This document shows positions 277 to 62,882 of a stretch of 64,000 nt of DNA, one piece after another. A program made the position numbers and the translations under genes. Source of the stretch: Candidatus Uhrbacteria bacterium. GTDB taxonomy: Bacteria; Patescibacteriota; Patescibacteriia; JACRJV01. The notes under the pieces were generated by a model, which did not search any database, had not been told where the DNA came from, and saw only the letters and a list, made by a program, of their open reading frames with translations. The DNA lies in the NCBI GenBank assembly GCA_016215325.1, contig JACRJV010000019.1, forward strand, positions 9,959-73,958, given 5' to 3'. The number at the start of each line of letters is the position of its first letter. Positions within the stretch are counted from its first letter, which is position 1.

Positions 277-1524
277 TCAATGTATTCTGTCAACACCCAA
301 TACTAAATTCGGATTGACATCGAGTTTCTTCCACGGCGTGAATTGTTTTTTGAGTGCATGGAAGTATCCGGCAATCGCGATCATGACGGCGTTGTCGGTG
401 CAGAACGAAGGTATTGGTAATTGGTAATTAGTAATTGGTAATTCGCGAGCAACAGCCGCCGCGAGTTGCTCACGAAGTTGTTTGTTGGCGGCCACGCCAC
501 CGGCGAGAATGACTGTTTTAATCTTGTATTCTTTTGCCGCGCGTATTGTTTTTGCCACCAGTACATCAACGACAGCTTTTTGGAAACTGGCGCAGATATC
601 CGCAACAACAACAGGAGTTAGCTTGTAGCTTTTAGCTTGTAGCGTCGTCACCCTACCAGCTAATTTCCTAATTTCCAATTCTTTTACCTTGTAGAGCACC
701 GCCGTCTTAATCCCGGAAAAACTAAAATCATAATCATTGCTCTTGATCATCGGGGCGCTGAAAGGGAACACGGTCGGGTCGCCACTTTCTGCAAGACGCG
801 AGACCACCGGCCCTCCCGGATACTCTAACCCCAAAATCTTTGCCACTTTATCAAACGCTTCTCCCACCGCATCATCGCGCGTGGCTCCGATGATTTTATA
901 ACCCAACGGTTTTTTCATGAGCACAAGCTCTGTGTGACCGCCCGAGACGACGAGGGCCAGGGCGGGATAGGGTATGGGGGTTAGGGTATGGGGGTTAGGG
1001 TCGGTTTTCACGCCTAAACCCTGGACCCTGAACCCTATACCCTTTCGCTGCAGCCAGGCTGCAGCGATGTGTCCTTCCATGTGGTTGACCGCCACCAACG
1101 GAATCTTCCATGCCCACGCGAGGGTCCGCGCTGTTTCGACGCCGACCATCAACGAGGTGATCAGCCCTGGGCCATAGGTGACTGCAATGGCATCGATCGG
1201 GGGTTTTGTATTTAGTATTTTGTATTTAGTATTTGTTTCGGATTTCGGATTTCGAATTTCGGATTTTCGCCCTGCTGAGACGAGCGCCTTCTCCACTACC
1301 GGAATAATCTTCTCTACATGCTCCCGCGCTGCCACCTCCGGCACCACCCCACCGGTCTTCCGGTGTGTCGCAATCTGCGAATGCACGACATTGGAAAGAA
1401 TTTTCACGTCAATATTCCCCGACCAAAGGCTCCGTCGAGACGGGGCCTGCGTGGAGGGGCTCGAAAATTCGAGTACCGCCGCAGCCGTCTCATCGCAACT
1501 GGTTTCAATCCCAAGAATTCTCAT
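277..1524 (-). CDS. tsaD: tRNA N6-adenosine threonylcarbamoyltransferase TsaD (Kae1/Gcp), with four in-frame repeat insertions
   Basis: MRILGIETSCDETAAAV..., GGVVPEVAAREH, HMEGH, VVSGGH, AFDKVAKILGLEYPGGP and FCTDNAVMIA motifs. The track ORF starts earlier (1593); the conserved start MRIL is at 1524. The protein is about 75 aa longer than typical TsaD because of four low-complexity insertions. Confidence 0.9.
   Translation of the reverse strand: MRILGIETSCDETAAAVLEFSSPSTQAPSRRSLWSGNIDVKILSNVVHSQIATHRKTGGVVPEVAAREHVEKIIPVVEKALVSAGRKSEIRNPKSETNTKYKILNTKPPIDAIAVTYGPGLITSLMVGVETARTLAWAWKIPLVAVNHMEGHIAAAWLQRKGIGFRVQGLGVKTDPNPHTLTPIPYPALALVVSGGHTELVLMKKPLGYKIIGATRDDAVGEAFDKVAKILGLEYPGGPVVSRLAESGDPTVFPFSAPMIKSNDYDFSFSGIKTAVLYKVKELEIRKLAGRVTTLQAKSYKLTPVVVADICASFQKAVVDVLVAKTIRAAKEYKIKTVILAGGVAANKQLREQLAAAVARELPITNYQLPIPSFCTDNAVMIAIAGYFHALKKQFTPWKKLDVNPNLVLGVDRIH
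410..447. repeat. Tandem repeat GGTAATT(A/G)GTAATTGG inside tsaD (encodes ...LPITNYQLPIP...)
   Basis: The string ggtattggtaattggtaattagtaattggtaattcg is visible; it is an in-frame insertion relative to the conserved TsaD C-terminal FCTDN region. Confidence 0.6.
618..690. repeat. Tandem repeat AGCTTGTAGC / TAATTTCC inside tsaD (encodes ...LQAKSYKLTPVV...)
   Basis: gttagcttgtagcttttagcttgtagcg followed by taatttcctaatttccaatt. The coding frame is maintained. Confidence 0.55.
964..1043. repeat. Palindromic repeat (GGGTATGGGGGTTAGGGT x2 ... CTAAACCCTGGACCCTGAACCCTATACCC) inside tsaD
   Basis: Two GT-rich direct copies are followed by their approximate reverse complement. It translates in frame as GIGFRVQGLGVKTDPNPHTLTPIPYP, inserted between the HMEGH and VVSGGH motifs. 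Confidence 0.65.
1203..1268. repeat. Tandem repeat GTATTTAGTATTT / TTCGGATTTCGG inside tsaD
   Basis: gttttgtatttagtattttgtatttagtatttgtttcggatttcggatttcgaatttcggatttt. It translates in frame as ...SEIRNPKSETNTKYKILNTKPP... between conserved TsaD segments. Confidence 0.65.
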
Positions 1525-1528
1525 ACCA

Positions 1529-2347
1529 TTACCGTAAAAGAACATCTTTCTTCCTTTTGTTCGTAAAATCAACAACTGTTTCCCGCTGCTCATCTCCCAT
1601 CATCTCCCACATCACCTCAAAGATTGACTTGAAAATGTCGACCATGGCCGGGACCGCCACGACCACGGCTAACGAACTCAGGTGCGGGCTCACGATGAGA
1701 ATTTGATCCGGATAAATATCAATCGTGCTTTTAAAAGTATACTTGGCGGGGAGGTATCGTACATCGCGCAATAGTTTAGGATCGGCCGGATTGTCCGTAC
1801 GCGAATCAGCGGTGAGGAGCAACCGTGTTTTAATGTTTGTCCGCCCGCGCTCCACGCGAAACCGCTTGAAAAATGCCGGATCAATATCTTCCCAGCCATG
1901 CAACGAACCAATAATGCAGTATTTTTTATTCTTGTACCGCATCAGAAGACTGGTATAGAACGCTTCTAATTCTTCTTTTGTTTCGATGAACCGTAACCCC
2001 AACTGCTGGTCTTGTTTCCTTCCCAACGACTCAAGCGTTGGGATAATATTAGTAAACAACTCTAATTTTTTCTCAAAATACTGCGCCAACCGCTGCGGCT
2101 TTTCGGCGTAGTAATAGCGCTTGTTCTTACGAAAATATACCGAAACAAAACCCTTGTCTGATAAGGTCTTGAGGATAGCGTAAATTGTCGTGCGCTTCAA
2201 ACCAGCCTCTTTGGCAACCGTGCTGGCAAGCGACCCACCGATTTTAAGTAATGCTAAATAAACACTCACTTCCGGCTCTGAAAGGCCGAGGTTTTTGAGG
2301 ATTGCAATGTTTTCCATAGTGTCTAAATTGTACAACACTTTATTCAT
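1529..2347 (-). CDS. TrmB-family HTH transcriptional regulator
   Basis: N-terminal ...LKNLGLSEPEVSVYLALLKIGGSLASTVAKEAGLKRTTIYAILKTLSDKGFV (TrmB-type wHTH). Start probably at the internal MENIAIL (2317). Confidence 0.7.
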   Translation of the reverse strand: MNKVLYNLDTMENIAILKNLGLSEPEVSVYLALLKIGGSLASTVAKEAGLKRTTIYAILKTLSDKGFVSVYFRKNKRYYYAEKPQRLAQYFEKKLELFTNIIPTLESLGRKQDQQLGLRFIETKEELEAFYTSLLMRYKNKKYCIIGSLHGWEDIDPAFFKRFRVERGRTNIKTRLLLTADSRTDNPADPKLLRDVRYLPAKYTFKSTIDIYPDQILIVSPHLSSLAVVVAVPAMVDIFKSIFEVMWEMMGDEQRETVVDFTNKRKKDVLLR

Positions 2348-3627: not shown

Positions 3628-4140
3628 ATGTCGAAAAAAATCGTTCTTGTGCTATTGGTTGTGGGGTTTATTGGTCTTGGATACTACTTAATCTCTCCAG
3701 TATTTCGTGTCGTTGAAACAAACGAAGCATCTCCGCTAGCGCAGACGCCTCCGACAACGACCTCTCAACCGCCCACACCACAACCGCAAGACACAACAAC
3801 GCAAACGCAAGCCATCGTACAACCATCGGTTGTTGCCCGTGGCACCTTCCTGCCCCATGCGCATGCCGTAAACGGCACCGCGATGGTGATCCAAGACAAG
3901 CAAAAAACAACCCTTCGCTTCGAAAATTTTGATACCGTTAATGGTCCAGACCTCCGCATCTACCTGGCAACCGACCTGCGAGCAAAGGATATTGTCGACC
4001 TCGGCCCCATCAAAGCTACCAAAGGGAATGTAAACTATGCGCTCGACCGAAATATCGATATTTTGAAATATCGATATGTGTTAGTGTGGTGCCGTGCATT
4101 TAGTGTCCTGTTTAGTTCGGCTGAACTCCAGACATTATGA
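3628..4140 (+). CDS. DM13-domain protein, membrane-anchored
   Basis: N-terminal TM helix, Pro/Thr/Gln-rich linker, then GTFLPHAHAVNGTAMVIQD...LRFENFDTVNGPDLRIYLA, the characteristic DM13 pattern. Confidence 0.6.
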   Translation: MSKKIVLVLLVVGFIGLGYYLISPVFRVVETNEASPLAQTPPTTTSQPPTPQPQDTTTQTQAIVQPSVVARGTFLPHAHAVNGTAMVIQDKQKTTLRFENFDTVNGPDLRIYLATDLRAKDIVDLGPIKATKGNVNYALDRNIDILKYRYVLVWCRAFSVLFSSAELQTL

Positions 4141-8594: not shown

Positions 8595-10634
8595 ATGCCG
8601 TTTACTCTCGTTCCACCCTATCCCCCTTCTGGTGATCAACCCCGTGCGATCCAACAGCTCACAACTGGGGTCCGCTCTGGCGCCCATGATCAAGTATTGT
8701 TGGGCGTAACCGGATCCGGCAAAACCTTCACGATCGCCAATGTGATTCAATCCGTTCAAAAGCCGACATTGGTCATCGCTCACAACAAAACGTTGGCCGC
8801 ACAACTCACGCAAGAGTTCCGTACGTTCTTCCCCAACAATGCGGTGGAATACTTTGTCTCGTATTATGACTATTACCAACCAGAGGCCTACCTCCCATCC
8901 ACGGATACCTACATAGAAAAAGAGACGCAAATCAATGAGGAGATTGATCGCCTCCGCCATGCGGCCACCACCGCCATAATGACCCGCACCGACGTGATTG
9001 TCGTGGCCACGGTCTCCTGTATCTACAGTCTCGGCTCCCCAAATGAATACAAAAAAATGCTGATTGGGCTCGTGGTCGGCCAGCCGACTGAACGCCAAGC
9101 ATTGTTAGAACAATTGATTACGCTGCATTACACCCGCAACGATATTCTCAAACGCGGCTGCTTCCGGGCCAAAGGGGAATTATTCGAACTCATGCTGCCA
9201 GACAAAGAACAGATCATCCGCGTTGACTTGAGTGGCGGCGTGGTGCGCTCGATCGAGGTGTTTGATGCCGTGAGCCGCGCACAGCGCGAAAGCGTCCAAC
9301 AGCTGCTCGTGTTCCCGGCCAAGCATTTTGTGGTCGCCGAAGGAGTCAAGGAGGCGGCACTCCAGGCCATCGAACAAGAACTCAACCAACGCCTGGCTAC
9401 TCTCGACAAAGAGGGTAAGTTGTTGGAAGCCGAACGCCTCAAACGCCGCACGCGCTATGATCTGGCTATGATCCGAGAGATCGGTTATTGTAGTGGAATT
9501 GAAAATTACTCGCGCTATTTGTCTGCTCGGCCGCCTGGCAGTCCTCCGTACACACTCGTGGATTATTTCCCCAAAGATTTTTTGATGGTGATCGATGAGT
9601 CCCACGTGACGGTCCCTCAAATCGGCGGCATGTATGCCGGGGATCGCAGCCGCAAACAAACATTGGTCGAGCACGGGTTCCGCCTGCCCTCGGCGCTGGA
9701 CAACCGACCGCTCCAATTTAGCGAATTCGAAGAGCGCATGCCGCAGACAATTTACACCAGTGCCACACCGGGGAAGTATGAGCTTGGCAAGACGAGTCCC
9801 GCCGCAGCAGGATCCCGCACGCTGCGGGATAAGTCAAGCTCCGCCGATTCTTCATCTCTTCATCTCTTCATCTCTTCATCTCCCCTCATCATCGAGCAAA
9901 TCGTCCGCCCCACTGGCCTTGTAGACCCCGAAATTGTTCTCAAGCCCGCAGACAACCAAATCCCGGATCTTGAGAAAGAAATAGGGAAAGAAATAGAGAA
10001 TAAATGCCGGGTACTGGTGACCACGCTCACGAAAAAAATGGCAGAGGACTTGAGTGAGTATCTCCATGATCGCGGATACAAAACAAAGTATCTGCACAGC
10101 GATGTGGATACGATGGACCGAATCCGGGTGTTGGAAGACCTGCGCCGCGGCACCATCGACATCTTGATTGGTGTCAACCTGTTGCGGGAAGGGCTCGATC
10201 TCCCGGAGGTTTCGCTGGTGGCCATCTTGGATGCCGACAAAGAAGGGTTCTTGCGCAGCGACACGTCACTCATCCAAACCATGGGCCGTGCCGCCCGCAA
10301 CATCCGCGGCCGGGTGATCCTCTACGCCAATACGGTGACCGGCTCCATGAAGCGCGCCATTACCGAGACCAGCCGCCGCCGCAAAAAACAAGTCGAGTAT
10401 AACCTCGAGCATGGCATCACTCCCAAGTCCATCGAAAAGGCCATCCAATCCATTGTGGATTACGAACTCAAGCCGGAACTGCCGAGTGAATTTGTGGAGA
10501 TCGAAAAGTTCGAGGATGTCCCGGGGCTGATCAAAATAAAAATGAAAGAAGCCGCGCAGAGATTGGAGTTCGAACGGGCGGCTTTGATCAGAGATGAAGT
10601 AGTCCAATTAAAAAAACTCATCAGCACCCGATGA
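8595..10634 (+). CDS. uvrB: excinuclease ABC subunit B (UvrB) carrying a 33-aa in-frame repeat insertion
   Basis: Walker A GVTGSGKTFT, VIDESHVT, beta-hairpin region, helicase motif VI and the C-terminal UvrB-C domain (EAAQRLEFERAALIRDE). Confidence 0.95.
   Translation: MPFTLVPPYPPSGDQPRAIQQLTTGVRSGAHDQVLLGVTGSGKTFTIANVIQSVQKPTLVIAHNKTLAAQLTQEFRTFFPNNAVEYFVSYYDYYQPEAYLPSTDTYIEKETQINEEIDRLRHAATTAIMTRTDVIVVATVSCIYSLGSPNEYKKMLIGLVVGQPTERQALLEQLITLHYTRNDILKRGCFRAKGELFELMLPDKEQIIRVDLSGGVVRSIEVFDAVSRAQRESVQQLLVFPAKHFVVAEGVKEAALQAIEQELNQRLATLDKEGKLLEAERLKRRTRYDLAMIREIGYCSGIENYSRYLSARPPGSPPYTLVDYFPKDFLMVIDESHVTVPQIGGMYAGDRSRKQTLVEHGFRLPSALDNRPLQFSEFEERMPQTIYTSATPGKYELGKTSPAAAGSRTLRDKSSSADSSSLHLFISSSPLIIEQIVRPTGLVDPEIVLKPADNQIPDLEKEIGKEIENKCRVLVTTLTKKMAEDLSEYLHDRGYKTKYLHSDVDTMDRIRVLEDLRRGTIDILIGVNLLREGLDLPEVSLVAILDADKEGFLRSDTSLIQTMGRAARNIRGRVILYANTVTGSMKRAITETSRRRKKQVEYNLEHGITPKSIEKAIQSIVDYELKPELPSEFVEIEKFEDVPGLIKIKMKEAAQRLEFERAALIRDEVVQLKKLISTR
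9795..9893. repeat. Repeat element inserted in frame in uvrB (GTCCCGCCGCAGCAGGATCCCGCACGCTGCGGGA hairpin plus (TTCATCTC)x4)
   Basis: Translates as SPAAAGSRTLRDKSSSADSSSLHLFISSSPLII between the conserved TSATPGKYELGKT and EQIVRPTGLVDP. The same GTCCCGCCGCAGCGGGATCCCGC word recurs at 18575-18610. Confidence 0.6.
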
Positions 10635-15460: not shown

Positions 15461-15477
15461 ACCACCGAGTAAATTAA

Positions 15478-15535
15478 GCAAGATAAGCGAGATAAGTAAA
15501 TTAAGCGAGACACGCAAGATAAGCTATTTTTACAA
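15478..15535. repeat. Intercistronic repeat (GTAAATTAAGC / AAGATAAGCGAGATAAG family)
   Basis: taaattaagcaagataagcgagataagtaaattaagcgagacacgcaagataagc; the same words flank the 4HB gene at 62400-62882. Confidence 0.55.
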
Positions 15536-17648: not shown

Positions 17649-17700
17649 ACAAATAATGCGAATAACCATTCGTCATTCTGGCTTGGCCAGAATCCGATCT
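17649..17700. repeat. Intercistronic hairpin repeat (CGTCATTCTG...CAGAATCCG family)
   Basis: aatgcgaataaccattcgtcattctggcttggccagaatccgatc; related words at 18551-18565 and 61141-61170. Confidence 0.45.
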
Positions 17701-18539
17701 GATCCTGCCTGCCCCGCCTTGGCGGTGGGTCTCGGCCAAGATGACAACACCTCGCGCCACTCTTGTGGATCAACGCCGATACCAGACCACAATCGGATCT
17801 GTTCAACCCCTTGCGCGATAAACATTTCAATTCCGGATATTGTTTGCGCGCCTGCTAACCGCGCTTGCTTGAGCAATGCCGTCTCTAACGGGTTATACAC
17901 GCAGTCCATAACCTTCTGATACTGCTCAAAATGATATCCGGGCAGCGGGGAGGCGCTGCTATCAGGATGCATGCCAATGGGCGTGGTGTTTACAATAATG
18001 TCCAAGGGCTGTTTGTAAACATCTTCGATAGTTTTAAGTACAGTACCGCCAAATTGTTGTGCGAGGATTTGTGCCTTTTGCGGTGTGCGGTTCCAATAGT
18101 ACTGCGCGGCTTTCTTTTTGGAAAGAGTTACGGCAACCGCTCGTGCTGCCCCTCCGGCACCGAGGATCAGTGTATTCTTCCCTGCGATGTCGATCCCCCG
18201 CAGGGCATGCTCAACGCCAATGACGTCGGTATTATATCCCCGCAACATCGAATTCTCCGAAATCACCGTATTGACCGCACCGACCTCGCGCGCTGAATCA
18301 TCCAGTCCATCAAGGTATGGAATAATCGATTCCTTATGTGGGATGGTTACGGCCGTAAGGCCGATGCCAAGCGTGCGAATTGCCTGGACCAGCGCCGAAA
18401 CATCAGGGTGTGGGAATGCCAGCATGATTGCGTCGATTCCAGCCGAAGCGTAGCTTGTGGTATGCAGCAATGGACTCATGCTATGGGCAAGGGGGTAGCC
18501 AATAACCGCATTGAGTTTTGTTTTGGTAGTAATATTCAT
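17673..18539 (-). CDS. aroE: shikimate dehydrogenase
   Basis: VIGYPLAHSMSPLLH, GYNTDVIG, GAGGAARAV motifs. Confidence 0.85.
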   Translation of the reverse strand: MNITTKTKLNAVIGYPLAHSMSPLLHTTSYASAGIDAIMLAFPHPDVSALVQAIRTLGIGLTAVTIPHKESIIPYLDGLDDSAREVGAVNTVISENSMLRGYNTDVIGVEHALRGIDIAGKNTLILGAGGAARAVAVTLSKKKAAQYYWNRTPQKAQILAQQFGGTVLKTIEDVYKQPLDIIVNTTPIGMHPDSSASPLPGYHFEQYQKVMDCVYNPLETALLKQARLAGAQTISGIEMFIAQGVEQIRLWSGIGVDPQEWREVLSSWPRPTAKAGQAGSDRILAKPE

Positions 18540-18660
18540 AATTTGAGCATCGTCATTCTGAGGCTAAAACCGAAGTCCCGCCGCAGCGGGATCCCGCCCG
18601 AGGCGGGAAATCCTCAACTACAAGGTCCTGCGCAAAACTCAGGATGACACAACGGACTCG
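18540..18660. repeat. Intercistronic composite palindromic repeat (CGTCATTCTGAGG...CTCAGGATGACA with inner GTCCCGCCGCAGCGGGATCCCGCCCGAGGCGGGAA hairpins)
   Basis: Read directly from sequence; it shares the GTCCCGCCGCAGCGGGATCCCGC word with the uvrB insertion. Confidence 0.6.
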
Positions 18661-19100
18661 TTCACTCTCTTCAAATGTTCAGCAAGGATTTTTACCGCCT
18701 CTTGATACCCTTGTTCTTTCTTCCCGCTGACTTGTGCGATACATGCCGGTGCAATCACAGAATGCGCCCGCCACGATTCTCGGGCATGAATATCCGAAAG
18801 GTGCACTTCCAGGCAAGGGAGCTTCGTGTCCAGCAGCGCGTCATACAAAGCATAACTGTAATGCCCAAGTGCCCCGGGGTTCATGATGATTCCCGCTGCC
18901 GTTGAGGCATTTTCCTGGAGCCAATCGATCAAAGCACCTTCATGATTCGATTGAAAGGCGCGGATGATATACCCTAGAGCCTGCGCCGTGGCGCGCGTCT
19001 GTTGCTGGAGGGCATCCAGCGTCAACGTCCCATACAATTGTGGATCGCGTGTACCAAGGCGATTCAGGTTAGGCCCATGGATAAGGAGGATGGTGTTCAT
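18639..19100 (-). CDS. aroQ: 3-dehydroquinate dehydratase, type II
   Basis: MNTILLIHGPNLNRLGTRDPQLYG...QSNHEGALIDW... Confidence 0.9.
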   Translation of the reverse strand: MNTILLIHGPNLNRLGTRDPQLYGTLTLDALQQQTRATAQALGYIIRAFQSNHEGALIDWLQENASTAAGIIMNPGALGHYSYALYDALLDTKLPCLEVHLSDIHARESWRAHSVIAPACIAQVSGKKEQGYQEAVKILAEHLKRVNESVVSS

Positions 19101-19633
19101 ATCATGCCGGCGCGTAAACATAATGCTAATTTTTCGGTAACTTCACCGATAGAACTATTGTTGGCAATGGTGAACGTCGCTAATCGCTCATAGATTGTCC
19201 GGCGCTGCTCCCACATCCGCTCAAAGGCATCATAGGGGTTTTCGTCCGGGGCAAAAAATGCTGGACGCCCATTGACCATGATGCGTTCGAACACCTGTGA
19301 TTTGGGGGCGGTCACATGGATCACGATGTGGCGGCCGATCATCGGCTGATGCTCGCTCTGGAGGATGGTGCCTCCGCCTAATGAGATCACGATTTGCTCT
19401 TTGGCGGCGAGAACGTTGCGTAATACATCCCCTTCCAACTGACGAAAAAACTGTTCTCCGTGTTCATTCATGATCTGGCGAGCCGTAAGCGTCTGATGAT
19501 GCGTCTGCTCATAGAATTGCTCCAGCTCCCGATCGAGATCACGATACGGCAACTCCATGGTCCGTGCAAGCTCTCGGCCAATGGTTGATTTCCCAACATT
19601 CTTAAATCCAATAAGGAGAATGTGTCTGGTCAT
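19097..19633 (-). CDS. aroK: shikimate kinase
   Basis: ILLIGFKNVGKSTIGRELA (P-loop) and a LID region. Confidence 0.9.
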   Translation of the reverse strand: MTRHILLIGFKNVGKSTIGRELARTMELPYRDLDRELEQFYEQTHHQTLTARQIMNEHGEQFFRQLEGDVLRNVLAAKEQIVISLGGGTILQSEHQPMIGRHIVIHVTAPKSQVFERIMVNGRPAFFAPDENPYDAFERMWEQRRTIYERLATFTIANNSSIGEVTEKLALCLRAGMI

Positions 19634-21184: not shown

Positions 21185-24085
21185 ATGGAAAAAATCATCG
21201 TGCGTGGTGCCAAAGAACATAACCTCAAAAATGTGAACCTCGAAATCCCTCGGGATAAGCTTATCGTATTTACCGGGATCTCGGGATCGGGTAAATCCAC
21301 CCTCGCGTTTGATACCATCTTTGCCGAAGGCCAGCGCCGCTATTTAGAATCTCTTTCTTCGTATGCCCGCCAATTTTTAGGGCAGATGAAAAAACCGGAC
21401 GTCGAATCCATCGATGGACTCTCGCCCGCAATTTCGATCGACCAAAAAACCGCATCGCATAATCCGCGATCCACTGTCGGCACCGTCACCGAAATCTACG
21501 ACTATCTGCGATTGCTGTATTCCAAGATCGGCCTCCCGCATTGCCTGGATTGCGGTCGCGCGATCCAGCAACTCACCATTGATCAGATCGTGGAGTCAAT
21601 AATCGATGAGTTCAACGGGCAAGAGGTGATGATCTTTTCCCCGGTCGTGCGCGGGCGCAAAGGCGAATATCATACTCTGCTCAACGACTTCTATCTCAAA
21701 GGGTATGCCAAAGCGCGGGTTAATGGCGCCCTGGTGGCTCTGGGGGAGCGTATTGTGTTGGATCGCTATAAAACCCACACCATCGACATATTGATGGATG
21801 CGGTCATCGCGACCGTTGAGAACATGGGTCGATTGTTTGAGGCCGTCGAATTTGCCACCGGCAATGCCGAGGGAAATGTACTTGTCGCGAGTAAATCAAG
21901 CGGGTCAAGTAAATTAAGCTTGTCGCGAACGAAGAAAAAAAACTCTCTAGAACCTAGCGCCTATAACCTAGAACCTCAAACCGAACGCCTCTATAACCTC
22001 AAACTCGCGTGCCCCTATTGCAATTTGAGTTTTCCCGAAATTGCTCCACGCCTTTTCTCTTTCAACAGCCCCTACGGCGCTTGCCCGACGTGCACGGGGT
22101 TAGGAATAAAAAAAGAAATTGATCCAGAACTGATCATCCCTGACAAAACGAAAACGATCGAAGAAGGCGGAATCCTCCCAGATTCCTACAGCCAATTTAA
22201 TTATTATGGATCGATCTTGCGCTCACTGGCGGATCACTACCACCTCCCCAGCAACCGCCGCATCAAGGACCTCCCCAAAGAAACACTCAATGCCATCCTT
22301 TATGGCGCAGAAGATCCCATTCCTCTGCGTGTCAAATACTACATGAATGGACGGCCGCGCGTCTTCAAGACTCGCTTCCCAGGACTCATCCCATTGTTAG
22401 AGGAACGCTATCAAAAAACAGAATCTGACACGGTGCGATCGGATATCGAGGCGTATATGTCCAGCTCCGATTGTCCCACGTGCCACGGAGCGCGGCTCAA
22501 ACCCGAAGCATTAGCTGTAAAAGTCAGTACCCAGTCGATTGTTGATATCGCGCAACAATCCATCGCCAGCGCATATCAGTTTTTCCAAACGCTCCCCGCG
22601 ATACTCAATGCACGGCAAACACTCATCGCCGATCGCATCCTCAAAGAAATCACCAATCGGCTCAAATTCTTAGTGAATGTCGGCTTAGAATATCTCACCC
22701 TGAGTCGCACCGCCAATACCTTGGCCGGCGGCGAAGCACAACGCATTCGCCTCGCCAGCCAAGTGGGCAGCGCCCTCACCGGCGTGCTCTATGTACTGGA
22801 TGAGCCGTCGATTGGCCTCCATAGCCGAGATAACGCCAAACTGTTAGAGACCTTAAAACACCTGCGCGATATCGGCAACACTCTGATCGTGATCGAACAT
22901 GACGAAGAAACTATGCGAGAAGCCGACTGGCTCGTGGATATCGGGCCCCGCGCGGGCAAGCACGGCGGCACGATCATCGCCAGCGGCCCTCCCGAGCAGG
23001 TGATCAAGCACCCAACATCGTTGACCGCTCAATATTTGCGCGGAGAGCGCTCAATACCAGTGCCAGAGCAACGTCGAAGGCCACGCAAAAACTCTTTAAT
23101 CATTCGCGGGGCTCGCGAACATAACCTTAAAAACATTGCGGTCGAAATCCCGCTGGGGGTGCTTGTCTGTATTACCGGTGTATCAGGCTCGGGAAAATCC
23201 ACGCTCATAGAGGATATCCTCTATCCGGCGCTGGCGAAGAAACTCCATCATGCCAACACCCGGGCGGGACTCCATACAACCATCGAAGGAATCGAACACA
23301 TTGATAAGGTCATTGTCATCGATCAATCGCCCATCGGCCGCACACCGCGCTCGAACCCCGCCACCTATACGGGGATGTTTACGCCCATCCGAGAACTATT
23401 TGCCGCCACCAAGGGGGGGCGCATCCGAGGCTATGGCCCGGGGCGGTTCAGTTTTAATGTCCGCGGCGGACGGTGCGAAGCCTGCCAAGGGGACGGCGTC
23501 CAGAAAATCGAGATGCAATTTTTGCCTGATGTGTATATCCCCTGCGATGTCTGCGCCGGCAAACGCTATACCTCTGAAACACTGGCGATTACGTACAATG
23601 ATAAAAACATTGCAGACGTCTTAGCGATGACTGTTGAAGAAGGATATCTATTTTTTAAAGATATTCCCCAAATTGCCGACAAGCTAAACATCCTTAATGA
23701 TGTCGGCTTAGGGTATATTGAGTTGGGCCAGTCCGCCACCACGCTCTCCGGCGGCGAAGCGCAACGGATTAAGCTCGCCACCGAGCTGGCGCGCCGCGCC
23801 ACCGGCAGAACATTCTACATCCTCGATGAGCCGACCACGGGCTTGCACTTTGAAGATATCCATAAGCTCCTGTCGGTGCTCGAGCGCCTGGTGGATGCCG
23901 GCAATACCGTCTTAGTGATCGAGCATCAACTCGACGTGGTCAAAACCGCGGATTGGATTATTGATCTTGGCCCCGAAGGAGGAGACAAGGGTGGCAGTAT
24001 TGTAGCCCAAGGCACGCCCGAGCAGGTCGCCAAGATGAAACAAAGTTACACGGGACAGTTTTTAAAACCTCTTCTCAAGCAATAA
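21185..24085 (+). CDS. uvrA: excinuclease ABC subunit A (UvrA) carrying an in-frame repeat insertion
   Basis: Two ABC modules ([15 protein letters not shown]; [13 protein letters not shown]), LSGGEAQRI signature twice, and zinc-finger CxxC pairs. Confidence 0.95.
21890..21985. repeat. Repeat element inserted in frame in uvrA (GTAAATCAAGCGGGTCAAGTAAATTAAGC plus TAGAACCTAG/TATAACCT words)
   Basis: Translates [31 protein letters not shown] between the conserved ...NAEGNVLVA and [13 protein letters not shown]. It shares the GTAAATTAAGC word with 15478-15535 and the 4HB flanks. Confidence 0.55.
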
Positions 24086-27772: not shown

Positions 27773-28558
27773 ATGTACAGCGCCCGGCAGGTCATGAAGA
27801 CACACGGGACAATTCCTCAAGACTGTGTTACAGTAACACCATCTTATGGTAGGTCTATATTCTCTATGATGCGACGCAATATTCGAGCTTCTGCGCTGCC
27901 AATCGGTATCATGATGATTGCCCTTTTTTCTTGGAATACTCCCAGTGCTCATGCGTTGAGCCTTTGGCAATCACTCCGATCTCTCTTCACGCAAAATCAA
28001 ACAACAGAGGCCCGTGTCGTGACGCCCGCAAGACCCCCGCAACTCCCGGTTACTCCGACTGGCTATCGCAAACCCGCTCCGGCGCCGACTCGTCGCAATC
28101 CCCGCCCTGCAACGCCCGCCTATCGGCCAAAACCAGCAGCCTATCGAGCACCGGTGCAACGACCGACCCCTAAACCCGTTCCAGCATATCGGCCACTGCC
28201 TCCGGCGTATCGACCTCGTCCTATCGAATATCGGACCCCGGCCTCGAGACCCGTTCCGACACCCGCCTATCGACCCGTCACGCCTGCCTATCGCCTTCCC
28301 ACACCTGAATATCGACGCCCACCGGAATACCGGACCCCTGCCCGCCCAGCGCCTCCGCCACCGATAGAGCCCCCAGTAATTCGAGTTCAACCGGCATACC
28401 GTTTTGTGCCACCTCCAGCACCTCTTCCACCGGCATCGGTCATAGATCCCGCTCCGGTTGTCATTCCCCCTCCAGAATACCGTACAAACCCGTCTGGATA
28501 TCGCAGTCTTCGCAACCGTCCAATCAGCACTCTCACGCCATGGTGGTATCAACAATAA
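27773..28558 (+). CDS. secreted proline/tyrosine-rich repeat protein ((P)AYRP(x) repeats)
   Basis: Signal peptide (IGIMMIALFSWNTPSAHA), then about 20 copies of xYRxP / PAYRP. Probable start at the internal MMRRN. Confidence 0.5.
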   Translation: MYSARQVMKTHGTIPQDCVTVTPSYGRSIFSMMRRNIRASALPIGIMMIALFSWNTPSAHALSLWQSLRSLFTQNQTTEARVVTPARPPQLPVTPTGYRKPAPAPTRRNPRPATPAYRPKPAAYRAPVQRPTPKPVPAYRPLPPAYRPRPIEYRTPASRPVPTPAYRPVTPAYRLPTPEYRRPPEYRTPARPAPPPPIEPPVIRVQPAYRFVPPPAPLPPASVIDPAPVVIPPPEYRTNPSGYRSLRNRPISTLTPWWYQQ

Positions 28559-33083: not shown

Positions 33084-35454
<2,371 letters not shown>

Positions 35455-43648: not shown

Positions 43649-46758
<3,110 letters not shown>

Positions 46759-46793
46759 ATTAAAAGGCATGGAATACATCTATTCTCTTCAGT

Positions 46794-46920
46794 GTGGTCT
46801 TGGTGATCTCAAGCGGCATGGAACCACCTCTTCCCATCCCGAACAGAGTCGTGAAACGTGCCAGCACCGATGATACTTGGGTTAAACCAAGCCCTGGGAA
46901 CGTAGGCCATTGCCAAGACC
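46794..46920 (+). rRNA. rrf: 5S ribosomal RNA
   Basis: CCCATCCCGAACAGAGTCGTGAAACGTGCCAGCACCGATGATACTTGGG... with complementary ends tggtcttggtga / ccattgccaagacc. Confidence 0.8.
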
Positions 46921-53846: not shown

Positions 53847-55436
53847 TCAACTACTAACGAAATTTACTGACAACTTTTTATAATACCGTTGCCGTTGCTT
53901 AAACTGCCTCTCGAGAAATGGAATTTGCGCATCACGGTAATCGATAATCGTCTTTTGGCTGCCAATATCTCTGAGTCGCCCGATATACTGAACGAGCTTA
54001 CCCTCGAATGCAAAAGGAAACGCCAATATCAAACAAGAAATTCCACGAATATCGATGCCCTCGCCAAAGAATTGTCCAGTGGACAAGATGACTCGATAAT
54101 GTCCCGACTCAATTTGTTTCAGCTTTGATGTTCTTGACCGAGCAGAGTCGTCCCCGGAAATAACGATCGTCTCGCACTTCCCCTTAAGATACAGGGCTAA
54201 AATTTCCAAATGTTCCTTTCGTTCGCTTAACACCAACAGTCTTTTGCCGTCGCTCACATTGCTCAAGATGTCTTCAATAATCATCTGATTCCTCGCTGTA
54301 TCGAAACAGACAACTTTTGCCAAGAGTTGAAAATTATCAGTGGTAAATTTAAATGGTAGAGCTAAAGTTGTTGTGTGGATGAGTACTTCCGGTGGCTGAC
54401 GTGAAAGTTCAGAGACTGGGGCGATATCAGAAGCTTCCATACGAGCGACGATGTCGCCGATATACACATAGATCAATTTTTCATCGTTGTGCTTTCGCTT
54501 TGGAGTCGCCGTCAGACCGTAGAGATATTTTGGATTTAACTCTGCAATGACTTCACGGAACGTTGCAGCCGGAATGTGGTGACATTCATCCACAATAATC
54601 GTTCCGAATGTATCCCGTAGCTCTGTGAGGTTGCCTTTGCGAGCCAAGCTCTGCAACAGACCGACGGTTATTTGCTTGCCCAATTTTTTCTTCGTTCCAG
54701 AATATTGGCCAATATGCGCTTTCGCAATCCCTAAAAATGTCTGGATTCTTTCAACCCACTGATCGAGCAATTGTTTGCGGTGGACAAGAATAAGCGCCGG
54801 TAGCTGCCTTCGGGCTATCAGTTCAAGGCCGATAACCGTTTTGCCGCTCCCGGATGGAGCAACAATGAGATTACCAAAACCGGCTCCGGTCAACGTGTCT
54901 TGATTGGGGAACAAGCGATCAAAACTGACTTCCTTTTCAAACTCAGAGACATGAAATGCTCTGCGGATCAGCTCAAGCGCGATTTGTCGGCTCTTGTAGC
55001 ATGGATAGGCTTCAGAAAAGAACATCCAGACATGACCGCCGTTGCCAGAGCGTGAACGCTCCAGATATGCAGAAAGTCCGACTTCCGCGCAAGCTACGCT
55101 AAAGGCTTTACTATCAGCGAGCCAATTCTCGCCATCAAAATCTGCCACAATAAAATACGATGTGTTGTCTGAGAGTATCGGATACATTCCGATAACGTGG
55201 CCTCCGAGGGGATGTTTTTTAACAACATCATTCGTTAGCGCTATCAGCTTCTTATATTCGAAATCTTTCATGGAGCCTCCGCGCCGCTTATGCGCCATGA
55301 ATTCATCCCAAATAAAATCATAGGCCGGACTGTATCCAGACCGGCCTTCTTTTTCCCATCGGCGAGCATAGACATCCGTACGCCCATGAAATAGCGACAT
55401 GTATAACTCAAGTTGTTGCTCGCTGATAACAACCAT
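53847..55436 (-). CDS. fusion protein: N-terminal archaeo-eukaryotic primase-polymerase (AEP/PrimPol)-like domain plus C-terminal superfamily-2 DEAD/DEAH-box helicase
   Basis: N-terminus: YFIVADFDGENW (DxD), RSRSGNGGHVWMFF (sG-G-H), SFDRLFPNQDTLTG (motif III-like). C-terminus: APSGSGKT (Walker A), IIVDECHH (DExH), LTATP (III), QYIGRLRD (VI). Confidence 0.65.
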   Translation of the reverse strand: MVVISEQQLELYMSLFHGRTDVYARRWEKEGRSGYSPAYDFIWDEFMAHKRRGGSMKDFEYKKLIALTNDVVKKHPLGGHVIGMYPILSDNTSYFIVADFDGENWLADSKAFSVACAEVGLSAYLERSRSGNGGHVWMFFSEAYPCYKSRQIALELIRRAFHVSEFEKEVSFDRLFPNQDTLTGAGFGNLIVAPSGSGKTVIGLELIARRQLPALILVHRKQLLDQWVERIQTFLGIAKAHIGQYSGTKKKLGKQITVGLLQSLARKGNLTELRDTFGTIIVDECHHIPAATFREVIAELNPKYLYGLTATPKRKHNDEKLIYVYIGDIVARMEASDIAPVSELSRQPPEVLIHTTTLALPFKFTTDNFQLLAKVVCFDTARNQMIIEDILSNVSDGKRLLVLSERKEHLEILALYLKGKCETIVISGDDSARSRTSKLKQIESGHYRVILSTGQFFGEGIDIRGISCLILAFPFAFEGKLVQYIGRLRDIGSQKTIIDYRDAQIPFLERQFKQRQRYYKKLSVNFVSS

Positions 55437-55455
55437 AGATTACAGAAAACGCCAG

Positions 55456-56427
55456 TCATCGCACATCTGTGCGGTCCAAAATTTTGAATCCGTCCATAAC
55501 AGCTTCACAGAGAAAATCTTCTAATTGGCTCTGGTCTTCTTTCGTTTGGGCCTTGTAAAGATAGGTGTAATAAAGTTGTTTTTGTTCCTGACGGATAATC
55601 GCGGGGGCAAAATTTGCATTAAGCAATATTGCATTCATGAGCAAACGGCCAACACGGCCATTCCCATCAGAAAAAGGATGAATTTGCTCAAATGTGCTGT
55701 GTACACCGGCAGACAACGCGATGATATCTTTTGTTTTTTTATTAATGCGAACCATAACTTCCGGTATTAATTTCGGGACACTGACATAATTCGCAGTCGG
55801 CAAATTTACGCCGGTGATTCTGACGGCGTGATTGCGATAGACTCCAGCATCCGGGCGGACTCCATTCATGAGAATGCTATGGAGCTTTAATACTAAATCC
55901 TCATCAATTTTTTCTTCTTTGGCGATATAGTCAAACAAGTAGTTAAGAGCTGTTTGATGATTTTTTGCTTCCAGTTGCTCGGTCAGACTTTTGTGAGGTA
56001 AGGCTACATTGTCAAAAAGAATCGCCGCAGTATCCGGTTCGGTCAATGTGCTCCCTTCGATGCTATTGCTATGGTATGTGAGTTTTAAGATAAATTGATC
56101 ACGAATATCAGGGTTGGCTATAATGTTATTTACAACATTTTTGTGCTCTCTCATTTTTTTTCGTAAGACGTTTTTTTTGGCGGTGAGCTGATCATCGGGG
56201 ATTATTTTCTGCCCCGTCACTTCCAAAAAGAGTTCATCAATGGATGCTTGCATCTTTGGCCTCGGGATGGACTTGCCAGTCCACCAGCTGTTAAAGGCAA
56301 CAAAAGATACGCCAAACTTTTCAGCTAACTTGGTTTGGGTTAAGCCGAGCATTTTTTGAATTATTTCTAATTTTTGTCGTATAGTCATAGGATTGTGTTT
56401 ATTCGTTAATCGACCATTTATTGACAT
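55456..56427 (-). CDS. Fic-family protein with N-terminal XRE-type HTH
   Basis: HTH (TIRQKLEIIQKMLGLTQTKLAEKFGVS) and Fic motif HPFSDGNGRVGRLL. The track ORF starts at a TTG (56454); ATG starts are at 56427 and 56388. Confidence 0.8.
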   Translation of the reverse strand: MSINGRLTNKHNPMTIRQKLEIIQKMLGLTQTKLAEKFGVSFVAFNSWWTGKSIPRPKMQASIDELFLEVTGQKIIPDDQLTAKKNVLRKKMREHKNVVNNIIANPDIRDQFILKLTYHSNSIEGSTLTEPDTAAILFDNVALPHKSLTEQLEAKNHQTALNYLFDYIAKEEKIDEDLVLKLHSILMNGVRPDAGVYRNHAVRITGVNLPTANYVSVPKLIPEVMVRINKKTKDIIALSAGVHSTFEQIHPFSDGNGRVGRLLMNAILLNANFAPAIIRQEQKQLYYTYLYKAQTKEDQSQLEDFLCEAVMDGFKILDRTDVR

Positions 56428-56434
56428 ATTATCA

Positions 56435-56448
56435 AACTTTATAAAGTT
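56435..56448. promoter_or_regulatory. Perfect palindrome AACTTTATAAAGTT at the 5' end of the fic gene (candidate autoregulatory operator)
   Basis: Visible; a second half-site, TATAAAGTTTGA, lies 20 bp upstream. Confidence 0.35.
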
Positions 56449-56695
56449 AGTCAATATATCAAGATTCTATAAAGTTTGAAATCTTGTCAAGTATACTTTA
56501 CAAGTAGTATAAAATGTAGGAAAACAAGAGCAATATCAGCTTGAAATGCATGATTCTCTTGTTACCAATCTATACTTGAAGATGTGAACGTATTGAAAAA
56601 CAGGGGGGAAACGCAATGGACGGCCCTAGTGGCCGCCCATGAAATCGCATCGCGATCTTCCCAAAATTCTGTTCAAATCGACGTTTGTTTGATTC

Positions 56696-58380: not shown

Positions 58381-58482
58381 AGTTGCTGCAATATCCGCAG
58401 ACTGGTGGCGGTCGCCCCTCTTTCCTATCCTACGTTCAATTTTGCCGAGTGTCAAAATACGCTCCAATTTGCTCGGAGCGTA

Positions 58483-62399: not shown

Positions 62400-62459
62400 A
62401 CCTTATTACGAGCAAGATAAGCGAGATAAGCAAGACAAGTAAATTAAGCACGACATGCT
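62400..62459. repeat. Left inverted repeat flanking the 4HB gene (AAGATAAGCGAGATAAGCAAGACAAGTAAATTAAGC)
   Basis: Its reverse complement is found at 62836-62882. Confidence 0.6.
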
Positions 62460-62835: not shown

Positions 62836-62882
62836 GGCTTAATTTACTTATCTTGCTTATCTCGCTTAATTTACTTCGTATG
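62836..62882. repeat. Right inverted repeat flanking the 4HB gene (GCTTAATTTACTTATCTTGCTTATCTCGCTTAATTTAC)
   Basis: Near-perfect reverse complement of 62405-62452. Confidence 0.6.

What the first reader, a model, noticed from the sequence alone, without database searches (positions are those of the whole stretch)
9795..9893. uvrB carries a 33-codon in-frame insertion made of a dispersed hairpin repeat plus (TTCATCTC)x4
The sequence between the universally conserved TSATPG..ELGKT and EQIVRPTGLVDP has no counterpart in canonical UvrB. Its DNA contains GTCCCGCCGCAGCAGGATCCCGCACGCTGCGGGA. This is a near copy of the GTCCCGCCGCAGCGGGATCCCGCCCGAGGCGGGAA hairpin in the aroE-aroQ spacer (18575-18610). 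A perfect 8-bp x4 microsatellite follows. This is a second example of repeat-element colonisation of a DNA-repair gene while the frame is preserved.
Basis: partly seen in the sequence, partly recalled or inferred. Interest (0 to 1): 0.6.

Follow-up and report, generated by a model that had tools for sequence, protein, structure and literature searches.

The report
Repeat-built in-frame insert in UvrB linker
The DNA-repair gene uvrB of this Candidatus Uhrbacteria (CPR) genome carries a translated insert of about 29 codons built from the genome's own small dispersed repeats, at a linker that about half of the sampled CPR UvrBs have also filled with repeat-like sequence; this resembles the palindromic elements of Rickettsia and is not specific to repair genes.

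Summary
uvrB (8595-10634, +) is intact. Solved UvrB structures align up to residue 398 and resume at 428, leaving about 29 residues without a counterpart.

The insert has three modules:
- remnants of a 9-nt tandem array;
- two tandem GC hairpins (9797-9829), 31/35 identical to an intergenic copy at 18574-18608;
- a perfect (TCTTCATC)x4.2 tract (9849-9882).

Four relatives show a layered history. The array and a tail of the same length as the 8-mer tract are shared. The hairpin pair is intact in only two of five. A fifth relative lacks exactly three 8-mer units.

The site is the connection between helicase domains 1a and 3, not the 1b/2 boundary. It holds inserts of at least 5 residues in 56 of 120 CPR UvrBs. 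Among 80 UvrB loci from many phyla, only one, a Saccharibacteria (CPR) locus, had an insert.

The same hairpin family occurs in many low-GC, CPR-like contigs. Copies sit in frame in a class I aminoacyl-tRNA synthetase, Fmt, TrmD, GatB and PheT, and one sits inside a 23S rRNA gene. uvrA and tsaD in this window also carry repeat inserts.

Verdict: an RPE-like, largely neutral colonisation of a permissive site, with new element families. Moderate interest.

The parts
8595..10634 (+). uvrB coding sequence, 679 aa, intact, with all helicase motifs
   Evidence: ORF. Pfam ResIII, UvrB_inter, Helicase_C, UvrB and UVR. Solved UvrB chains match at E down to 1e-240. 100% identical to an NCBI Candidatus Uhrbacteria UvrB.
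9789..9875 (+). Segment with no counterpart in solved UvrB structures (aa 399-427, about 29 codons); boundaries ambiguous by 2-3 codons
   Evidence: HMMER alignments to 9gy7_E and 1d9z_A break at query 397/398 and resume at 428/429, with the chain passing from residue 401 to 402-404. AlphaFold2 pLDDT is 53-55 for residues 401-420, against 85-95 in the flanks.
9789..9797 (+). AAGACGAGT: left remnant of a 9-nt tandem array (three units in relatives L004 and L001)
   Evidence: Codon alignment with relatives. Same family as arrays D1/D3/I1 in the window.
9797..9812 (+). Hairpin 1, TCCCGC-CGCA-GCAGGA (one C·A mismatch in this copy)
   Evidence: The outer pair covaries U-A (24) / C-G (8) across 34 copies.
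9813..9829 (+). Hairpin 2, TCCCGCA-CGC-TGCGGGA (perfect 7-bp stem)
   Evidence: A-T here and in L001 versus C-G in the intergenic copy is a compensatory change.
9831..9839 (+). AAGTCAAGC: right-hand unit of the 9-nt array (AAATTAAGC in L004 and L001)
9849..9882 (+). (TCTTCATC)x4.2 perfect microsatellite, encoding SSSLHLFISSS by cycling through all three frames of the unit
   Evidence: TRF. L004 has one mismatch and the same length. L001 and L002 have the same length but are not repetitive. L089 lacks exactly 24 nt, i.e. three units.
18574..18608 (+). Intergenic copy of the double hairpin, between the shikimate-pathway ORFs 18639-19121(-) and 17673-18539(-) (called aroQ and aroE from sequence motifs, not Pfam-tested)
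   Evidence: Folds as two adjacent hairpins, -23.6 kcal/mol, z = -2.9.
18552..18648 (+). Larger palindromic element (GTCATTCTGAG ... CTCAGGATGAC) that encloses the intergenic double hairpin
   Evidence: Fold of 18540-18652: -41.6 kcal/mol, z = -3.4, 0 of 200 shuffles fold as well.
21887..21979 (+). In-frame insert of about 26-30 aa in uvrA, made of a 9-nt array (GAGTAAATCAAGCGGGTCAAGTAAATTAAGC) plus (CTAGAAC)x4.3
   Evidence: The solved UvrA alignment breaks at query 234 and resumes at 266, with the chain passing from 254 to 260. TRF 21947-21976. Sequence.

Best explanation
The segment is a translated, repeat-derived insert in the surface connection that follows helicase motif III (domain 1a) and leads into the second RecA-like domain (domain 3) of UvrB.

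It was built in steps from small dispersed repeats that are common in CPR/Patescibacteria genomes.
1. An ancestor of this Uhrbacteria clade acquired a 9-nt (3-codon) tandem array plus a short tail.
2. One 8-nt unit in the tail expanded by three units (24 nt, so the frame was kept).
3. A 33-nt pair of GC-rich hairpins entered between array units. It is intact in the window and in L001, absent in L004 and perhaps a remnant in L002.
4. The window lineage lost two array units (18 nt).

Every step is a multiple of three because only such variants leave uvrB functional. All three repeat types can be read through without a stop, so they survive wherever the protein tolerates extra residues.

This linker is by far the most permissive internal site of UvrB. 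That is why many CPR lineages carry unrelated repeat-like peptides at the same codon position.

The N-terminal two-thirds of the insert behaves as unstructured filler whose DNA or RNA structure, not its peptide, is conserved. The C-terminal third (the 8-mer tract) appears to have been absorbed into the protein as a short hydrophobic helix.

Shown: the anatomy, the family membership of the repeats, the presence/absence pattern, the site hot spot and the restriction of that hot spot to CPR in this sample. Inferred: the order of events, neutrality, and the permissive-site filter as the reason for recurrence. The enzyme or process that spreads the repeats is unknown.
For: - Break in the alignment to solved structures at exactly this point, with an intact domain set.
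- The hairpin has a second copy in the window, with 0 expected by chance.
After filtering to contigs of at most 58% GC it gave 58 copies (53 distinct). They usually sit between short AT-rich (often heptamer-like) tandem arrays.
- About 10 of these copies lie inside long ORFs in three reading modes (PAAAGSR, SRRSGIP, RDPAAAG). Pfam identified six of the ORFs: a class I aminoacyl-tRNA synthetase, Fmt, TrmD, an epimerase, GatB and PheT.
- One copy lies in a 23S rRNA gene.
- Compensatory changes keep both stems.
- The 9-nt array in relatives' uvrB matches arrays in this window, both intergenic and inside uvrA.
- The hairpin pair is 30/33 identical between the window and L001, against 73.5% gene-wide and 47.7% at third positions.
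- The 8-mer tract plus tail is 55/57 identical between the window and L004, with 0 of 19 third-position differences, against 58.6% third-position identity gene-wide.
- Site hot spot: 56 of 120 CPR UvrBs have inserts of at least 5 residues here. The next internal site has about 8 of 120 with inserts of 5 or more.
- Insert-bearing and insert-free sequences interleave on a neighbour-joining tree.
- Control: of 80 UvrB loci across phyla, the 75 I could read at this site have a linker of fixed length, except one Saccharibacteria (CPR) locus with +35 aa.
- AlphaFold2: the core is confident and the insert is low confidence.
- tsaD and uvrA in the same window carry inserts of the same kind. The tsaD insert is 57/64 identical in DNA to the UvrB-linker insert of a distant CPR, L210.
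- In-frame insertion of small repeats into protein genes is an established phenomenon (Delihas 2011, PMC3184786).
Against: - No transposase or Y1/RAYT gene was found in the roughly 30 window ORFs scanned with Pfam, so the means of spread is unknown.
- There are no terminal inverted repeats and no clear target-site duplication at the uvrB insert.
- Only two copies of the hairpin lie in 64 kb, so its copy number in this genome is unknown.
- Gains cannot be told from precise losses. An ancient insert with fast turnover would explain part of the hot spot.
- Insert-bearing UvrBs tend to have L, I or M after 'YE' while insert-free ones have K, R or Q. This hints at shared ancestry or co-adaptation rather than purely independent hits.
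- The tail segment 'SFQAIIASSPLIV' is identical in L001 and L002 despite about 7 synonymous differences. Part of the insert is therefore not neutral.
- Translation of the insert has not been shown experimentally.
Confidence: 0.75

Rival explanations
1. The insert is an adaptive, lineage-specific extension of the interdomain linker. CPR UvrBs would use a longer connection between domains 1a and 3 (for domain motion, partner binding or autoinhibition), and repeats are only the raw material.
For: The same site is extended in 56 of 120 CPR UvrBs but in no non-CPR locus of the control. The tail is length-conserved in four relatives. It is identical in amino acids between L001 and L002 despite synonymous changes. 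It is predicted helical with pLDDT near 80.
Against: Insert peptides are unrelated in sequence, length (7-43 aa) and composition between lineages. Close sisters lack them altogether, for example P0040 versus P0043, P0019 versus P0051, and P0006 within the Uhrbacteria clade. In the hairpin module the DNA is conserved rather than the peptide. The same elements sit in many unrelated proteins and in rRNA.
Confidence: 0.1
2. The hairpins act at the RNA level inside the uvrB mRNA, for example as a processing or stability site, a transcription pause, or a translational pause between the two helicase domains. That function would maintain them.
For: Both stems are kept by compensatory changes. The hairpin DNA is more conserved than synonymous sites. 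The intergenic copy lies inside a probable aroQ-aroE transcript.
Against: Copies occur in both orientations relative to the host gene. The closest relative, L004, lacks the hairpin cleanly. No Rfam family matches above noise. There is no T-run after the hairpins on either strand. Stem conservation is equally expected for a selfish DNA palindrome.
Confidence: 0.08
3. The perfect 8-nt x4 tract is a contingency switch. Gain or loss of one unit shifts the frame and turns UvrB off, giving a reversible mutator or UV-sensitive subpopulation.
For: The unit length is not a multiple of three and the tract is perfect. The tract has no synonymous divergence from L004, as expected if slippage homogenises it. 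L089 differs by exactly three units, so unit-wise slippage has occurred in this clade.
Against: There are only four units. The count is the same in L004. L001 and L002 keep the same length without being repetitive. No out-of-frame allele was seen in any assembly. uvrB is not a known target of phase variation.
Confidence: 0.05
4. The segment is an assembly or annotation artefact, or the gene is a decaying pseudogene.
For: Repeats can cause misassembly. The source is a metagenome-assembled genome.
Against: The frame is open across 679 codons with all conserved motifs. Independent assemblies from ENA, JGI and Logan give the same architecture in relatives. All indels between relatives are multiples of three.
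Confidence: 0.02

Closest known systems
Rickettsia palindromic elements (RPE; Ogata et al. 2000, as reviewed by Delihas 2011, PMC3184786)
   Same: Small dispersed repeats that form hairpins. They occur both between genes and in frame inside conserved housekeeping genes, leaving the reading frame and the fold intact. They are read as selfish DNA filtered by protein tolerance.
   Different: RPEs are single units of about 105-146 bp and are confined to Rickettsia. Here the modules are much shorter (a 33-nt hairpin pair, 7-9-nt tandem arrays) and combine into composites. They occur across CPR/Patescibacteria. One protein site is colonised recurrently. Sequence relatedness to RPEs was not tested and is not expected.
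REP / BIME / REPIN elements mobilised by RAYT (Y1) transposases (Di Nocera et al. 2013, PMC3733652)
   Same: GC-rich imperfect palindromes of 16-17 nt occurring as adjacent pairs, with stems kept by compensatory change, often inside operons.
   Different: REPs are extragenic by definition and carry a GTAG or CGTC tag at one end. This family has neither property. No RAYT gene lies in the 64-kb window. The two hairpins are in direct tandem, not inverted as in REPINs.
Short tandemly repeated repetitive (STRR) heptanucleotide sequences of filamentous cyanobacteria (from my own knowledge; not checked here)
   Same: Short tandem arrays of 7-nt units scattered through intergenic regions, like the heptamer arrays of this window and of other CPR contigs.
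   Different: Different phylum. STRRs are not known for in-frame colonisation of housekeeping genes or for pairing with a central GC hairpin.
Simple-sequence-repeat contingency loci (phase variation, e.g. Haemophilus and Neisseria)
   Same: A perfect tandem repeat inside an ORF whose unit length (8 nt) is not a multiple of three.
   Different: Only four units. No on/off alleles were seen. The target is a core repair gene rather than a surface or restriction-modification gene.

Membership tests
UvrB (excinuclease ABC subunit B) | Full domain set (helicase domains 1a and 3, UvrA-interaction domain 2, UvrB-specific domain, C-terminal UVR) and conserved helicase motifs | tested here: met
   Pfam ResIII, DEAD, UvrB_inter, Helicase_C, UvrB and UVR. 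Solved UvrB chains match at E = 1e-240. Invariant motif columns are retained.
RPE-like in-frame dispersed repeats | The element lies inside a conserved protein gene with the reading frame preserved | tested here: met
RPE-like in-frame dispersed repeats | Other copies of the same element exist elsewhere, including between genes | tested here: met
   Window copy at 18574-18608. 58 copies in contigs of at most 58% GC. 9-nt arrays at 15466-15524, 62409-62458 and 62837-62876.
RPE-like in-frame dispersed repeats | Palindromic, hairpin-forming sequence | tested here: met
   Folds with z about -2.9. Compensatory pairs.
RPE-like in-frame dispersed repeats | The insert sits at a site that does not disrupt the fold | tested here: met
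   AlphaFold2 model: mean pLDDT 82.6, insert 53-55, flanks 85-95. The position is between the two helicase domains. This is a prediction, not an experiment.
RPE-like in-frame dispersed repeats | Sequence homology to the RPE-1 to RPE-8 consensus and a Rickettsia host | not tested
   No RPE sequences were compared. The host is Candidatus Uhrbacteria. I therefore claim analogy, not membership.
REP / REPIN - RAYT system | Extragenic location | tested here: not met
   This copy and about 10 others lie inside ORFs.
REP / REPIN - RAYT system | Conserved GTAG or CGTC tetranucleotide at one end of the palindrome | tested here: not met
   The 5' flanks are TGT, AGT, TTT or GGC. GTAG appears only in some loops (CCGTAGCGG).
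REP / REPIN - RAYT system | A cognate Y1 (RAYT) transposase gene in the genome | tested here: inconclusive
   None in the roughly 30 window ORFs scanned. The rest of the genome was not available. A Y1_Tnp gene in L086 is flanked by unrelated hairpins.
MITE | Terminal inverted repeats and a target-site duplication | tested here: not met
   There are no terminal inverted repeats at the ends of the uvrB insert. The only ambiguous direct repeat is 'TCCC' / 'SP'.
Phase-variable contingency locus | Tandem repeat inside the ORF with a unit length that is not a multiple of three | tested here: met
   8 nt x 4.2, 100% matches.
Phase-variable contingency locus | Unit-number variation among close relatives that switches the frame on and off | tested here: inconclusive
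   L004 has the same number of units. L089 differs by exactly three units and stays in frame. No population or read-level data were available.

The most novel reading that the evidence does not exclude
CPR/Patescibacteria may carry a previously undescribed superfamily of small composite repeats that can be read through without a stop. They combine arrays of 7-9-nt units with a central GTCCCGCC..GCGGGA double hairpin. They spread between distant lineages and enter housekeeping proteins (UvrA, UvrB, TsaD, a class I aminoacyl-tRNA synthetase, Fmt, TrmD, GatB, PheT) and even 23S rRNA. The connection between UvrB domains 1a and 3 would be their most frequent landing site. This would be a phylum-scale counterpart of the Rickettsia RPEs with its own, still unknown, spreading mechanism.
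Probability: 0.45. Interest if true: 0.65.

Novelty: new member of a known kind. Interest (0 to 1): 0.5.

Why it matters
- It shows that the streamlined genomes of CPR bacteria are not free of selfish or slippage-derived DNA. Small repeats are written into core proteins and rRNA.
- This matters for annotating CPR proteins. Many 'lineage-specific insertions' and low-complexity stretches may be translated repeats.
- It matters for alignments and phylogenies built from marker genes.
- It gives a natural map of sites that tolerate insertions in conserved enzymes. Nature has tested the UvrB connection between domains 1a and 3 with dozens of unrelated peptides of 7-43 residues.
- Near-identical modules in different genes of distant CPR lineages (57/64 nt between tsaD here and uvrB in L210) point to an unidentified spreading mechanism worth looking for.

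Tried and rejected
- A mobilising enzyme in the window. Pfam scans of about 30 ORFs found no transposase or Y1/RAYT.
- The Y1_Tnp gene beside uvrA in L086. It is flanked by its own hairpins (…CACTTC/GAAGTG…), which are unrelated to the uvrB insert. I dropped this lead.
- Known RNA families. The gathering-threshold scan of the window gave only 23S, 5S and two tRNAs. Permissive scans of 9740-9920 and 18500-18680 gave only noise: C/D-box snoRNA and RsmY hits at 12-15 bits against thresholds of 36-57.
- A DNA target motif at empty sites. Ten insert-free CPR uvrB genes and 14 non-CPR ones share no nucleotide motif at the insertion point. Sequence-specific targeting is not supported.
- The partial match of the 8-mer tract at 34823-34865, inside the ATP synthase gamma-subunit ORF (atpG, minus strand). 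It is a degenerate similarity in ordinary coding sequence with no sign of an insert. I treated it as chance.
- The genome-contig scan. I reused it as the non-CPR control.
- Literature. Searches for a description of CPR UvrB inserts or of CPR array/hairpin repeats found nothing relevant. The held library is incomplete, so absence is weak evidence.
- Intein, intron or translational-bypass readings. I rejected these because there are no stop codons, there is no splicing or intein domain, and relatives show in-frame point divergence through the segment.
Full report
**1. What is in the sequence**

The ORF 8595-10634 (+) encodes a 679-aa UvrB. It is 100% identical to an NCBI protein from a Candidatus Uhrbacteria bacterium, a member of the CPR/Patescibacteria. 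Pfam finds all UvrB domains.

HMMER alignments to solved UvrB chains (9gy7_E, 1d9z_A and others) come in two pieces. Query residues 3-397/398 align to chain residues 5-401. Query residues 428/429 onward align from chain residue 402-404. About 29 residues (aa 399-427, nt 9789-9875) therefore have no counterpart.

The DNA reads AAGACGAGT | TCCCGCCGCAGCAGGA TCCCGCACGCTGCGGGA | T AAGTCAAGC | TCCGCCGAT | (TCTTCATC)x4.2.

- The 23-nt hairpin word recurs once more in the window, at 18575-18597 with one mismatch. No match was seen in 100 shuffles.
- The extended pair is 31/35 identical.
- The 8-nt tract is a perfect 4.2-copy array.

The insert is about 29 codons rather than 33, because 'SPLII' belongs to the canonical linker.

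**2. Where it sits in the protein**

The break follows helicase motif III (TSATPG) and precedes the strand IIEQIVRPTG. Pfam Helicase_C (domain 3) starts at residue 459. Domains 1a and 3 are the two helicase domains that form the ATP site (PMC3458569). The insert is therefore in the connection from domain 1a to domain 3, not at the 1b/2 boundary.

An AlphaFold2 model built from an 82-sequence alignment has mean pLDDT 82.6 and pTM 0.81.

| Residues | pLDDT |
|---|---|
| Flanks | 85-95 |
| 401-420 | 53-55 |
| 421-430 (encoded by the 8-mer tract) | about 80, modelled as a helix |

**3. History in close relatives**

I fetched the DNA of four relatives.

| Locus | Amino-acid identity to window UvrB | 9-nt array | Hairpin pair | Tail |
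|---|---|---|---|---|
| L004 | 90% | AAGACAAGC GAGATAAGC AAGATAAGT AAATTAAGC | absent | same 8-mer tract, one mismatch |
| L001 | 78% | present | CCCGCCGTAGCGGGGTCCCGCACGCTGCGGGAT, before AAATTAAGC | same length, not repetitive |
| L002 | 78% | degenerate | absent, possibly a remnant of its 3' half | same length, not repetitive |
| L089 | 76% | GAGTAAATCAAGCGAGTCAAGTAAATCAAGC | absent | lacks exactly 24 nt (three 8-mer units) |

Relatives at 73% and 65% identity have no insert.

The 9-nt array belongs to a family that also occurs in the window at 15466-15524, 62409-62458 and 62837-62876 (reverse orientation), and inside uvrA at about 21890-21922. The insert is thus layered: an old array plus tail, a three-unit expansion of an 8-mer, a hairpin pair intact in only two of five genomes, and a loss of two array units in the window lineage. 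All length differences (33, 24, 18 nt) are multiples of three.

**4. What is conserved**

- Window versus L004: uvrB is 82.6% identical in DNA outside the insert, and 58.6% at third positions. Across the 19 codons of the tract and tail there are 2 differences and none at a third position. From the gene-wide rate, 0.586^19 is about 4e-5 (my arithmetic).
- Window versus L001: the gene is 73.5% identical (47.7% at third positions), but the hairpin pair is 30/33 identical.
- The stems are kept by compensatory changes. In hairpin 2, A-T (window uvrB, L001) is replaced by C-G in the intergenic copy. In hairpin 1, the outer pair is U-A in 24 copies and C-G in 8 of 34 copies.

These patterns indicate constraint or homogenisation at the nucleic-acid level.

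The L001/L002 pair shows the opposite. The non-repetitive tail 'SFQAIIASSPLIV' is identical in amino acids despite about seven synonymous differences. Together with the pLDDT of about 80, this suggests that part of the insert has become an ordinary, selected piece of protein. The numbers are small.

**5. The site is a CPR-wide hot spot**

Among the 120 best homologues, all CPR-like, 56 have an insert of at least 5 residues at this codon position and 49 have at least 10. The longest is 42-43 residues, depending on where the boundary is drawn.

The peptides are unrelated between lineages and look like translated repeats. Examples are KSEIRNPKSETNSKFKIQNSKF, PARNASQRDAGG and CPPLPAGEGLGVRE.

The next most variable internal site, before motif II (DYF|..|FLLVIDE), has inserts of at least 5 residues in about 8 of 120, again with hairpin-type peptides.

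On a neighbour-joining tree built with the insert masked, insert-bearing and insert-free sequences interleave. Examples are P0040/P0043, P0019/P0051, P0017/P0085 and P0048/P0120. There have been many gains or precise losses.

As a control, I took 80 UvrB loci from many phyla and could read the linker in 75. It has the canonical length (+1 or +2 relative to my anchor) in every locus but one, a Saccharibacteria (CPR) locus with +35. Empty sites share no DNA motif. Tolerance of the protein, rather than sequence targeting, is the simplest reason for the recurrence.

**6. The repeats are dispersed CPR families and not specific to repair genes**

After filtering to contigs of at most 58% GC it left 58 copies (53 distinct) of the double hairpin. 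They are typically flanked by short AT-rich (often heptamer-like) tandem arrays.

About ten copies lie inside long ORFs, in three reading modes and both orientations. Pfam identifies six hosts: a class I aminoacyl-tRNA synthetase, Fmt, TrmD, an epimerase, GatB and PheT. One copy lies about 240 nt into a 23S rRNA gene.

In the window itself:
- uvrA (21185-24085) has an insert of about 26-30 aa made of the 9-nt array and (CTAGAAC)x4.
- tsaD (277-1593, minus strand, 438 aa instead of the roughly 340 I would expect from my own knowledge) is interrupted by several heptamer arrays.
- The tsaD module AAAATCCGAAATTCGAAATCCGAAATCCGAAACAAATACTAAATAC... is 57/64 identical to the UvrB-linker insert of L210. 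The UvrB of L210 is only 61% identical to the window's.

**7. Mechanism and rivals**

Best supported (0.75): a translated insert assembled from read-through-compatible dispersed repeats and local slippage, retained because this linker tolerates it. This is a CPR analogue of the in-frame small repeats reviewed by Delihas (PMC3184786), whose archetype is the Rickettsia RPE.

The spreading mechanism is not identified. There is no transposase in the scanned window ORFs, no terminal inverted repeats or target-site duplication, and no GTAG/CGTC tag.

Rivals:
- an adapted linker (0.10);
- an RNA-level cis element (0.08);
- an 8-mer phase-variation switch (0.05);
- an artefact or pseudogene (0.02).

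**8. Verdict**

It is one instance of a broad pattern of repeat colonisation of genes in CPR, not something particular to DNA repair. I found no description of these families or of the UvrB hot spot in the searchable literature. The principle itself has been known since 2000. I rate it a new member of a known kind, interest 0.5.

Noticed in passing
window 21887-21979 (inside uvrA, 21185-24085 +): uvrA carries an in-frame insert of about 26-30 aa (aa 235-265) at the end of its UvrB-binding region. It is made of a 9-nt array (GAGTAAATCAAGCGGGTCAAGTAAATTAAGC, flanked by a direct repeat CTTGTCGCGA) and (CTAGAAC)x4.3. CPR uvrA relatives vary in length at the same loop.
   Followed up: partly
window 277-1593 (-), tsaD: TsaD is 438 aa, and Pfam matches it in three separate stretches. 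Heptamer arrays at 413-443, 619-643, 660-680, 964-1043 and 1204-1266 are all read in frame, for example as KSEIRNPKSETNTKYKILNTK. The 1203-1266 module is 57/64 identical to the UvrB-linker insert of the distant CPR locus L210.
   Followed up: partly
window 15466-15524, 62409-62458, 62837-62876: Arrays of 9-nt units (AAGCAAGAT / AAGCGAGAT / AAGTAAATT) lie directly upstream of start codons, in either orientation. A role in the 5' untranslated region or promoter was not examined.
   Followed up: no
L170 about 3663-3683 (and L205): The same GC double hairpin is inserted about 240 nt into a bacterial 23S rRNA gene, so the family also enters structural RNA.
   Followed up: partly
window 43650-46918: The 23S rRNA match spans 3110 nt against a 2925-position model, so it probably contains insertions. 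It is followed by 5S. No 16S was reported anywhere in the window, so the 16S gene may be unlinked.
   Followed up: no
UvrB homologues P0005-P0008, P0033, P0048, P0059, P0097, P0102 (aa about 326 in window numbering): A second, rarer insertion hot spot in CPR UvrB lies just before motif II (DYF|..|FLLVIDE). Its peptides look hairpin-derived, for example PASSAGKPG and SHLDSLSRRGGAK. There are single cases at aa about 215 and 471.
   Followed up: partly
L002 17258-18692: In the relative's genome, a reverse transcriptase (RVT_1) and a bAvd gene lie directly downstream of uvrA. These are the hallmark of a diversity-generating retroelement.
   Followed up: no
L086 16466-17227: A Y1_Tnp (IS200/IS605- or RAYT-like) gene next to uvrA is flanked on both sides by similar hairpins (…CACTTC/GAAGTG…). 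These are unrelated to the uvrB insert of that genome.
   Followed up: partly
window 53847-56454 (-): A gene with an AEP-TOTE primase domain fused to a helicase (TOTE conflict system) lies next to a Fic-domain gene. This may be a defence island.
   Followed up: no
window 57650-57684 and 28112-28316: (ACGCGC)x6 lies inside the coordinates of the PLD-like gene 57286-58467 (-). A degenerate 21-nt periodic repeat (…CCTATCG…) lies inside the unannotated ORF 27773-28558. These are further tandem repeats within ORF coordinates.
   Followed up: no
120 CPR UvrB homologues: UvrBs with a long insert almost always have L, I or M after the conserved 'YE', while insert-free ones mostly have K, R or Q. I do not know whether this reflects shared ancestry, co-adaptation of the preceding helix, or part of the inserted DNA.
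   Followed up: no
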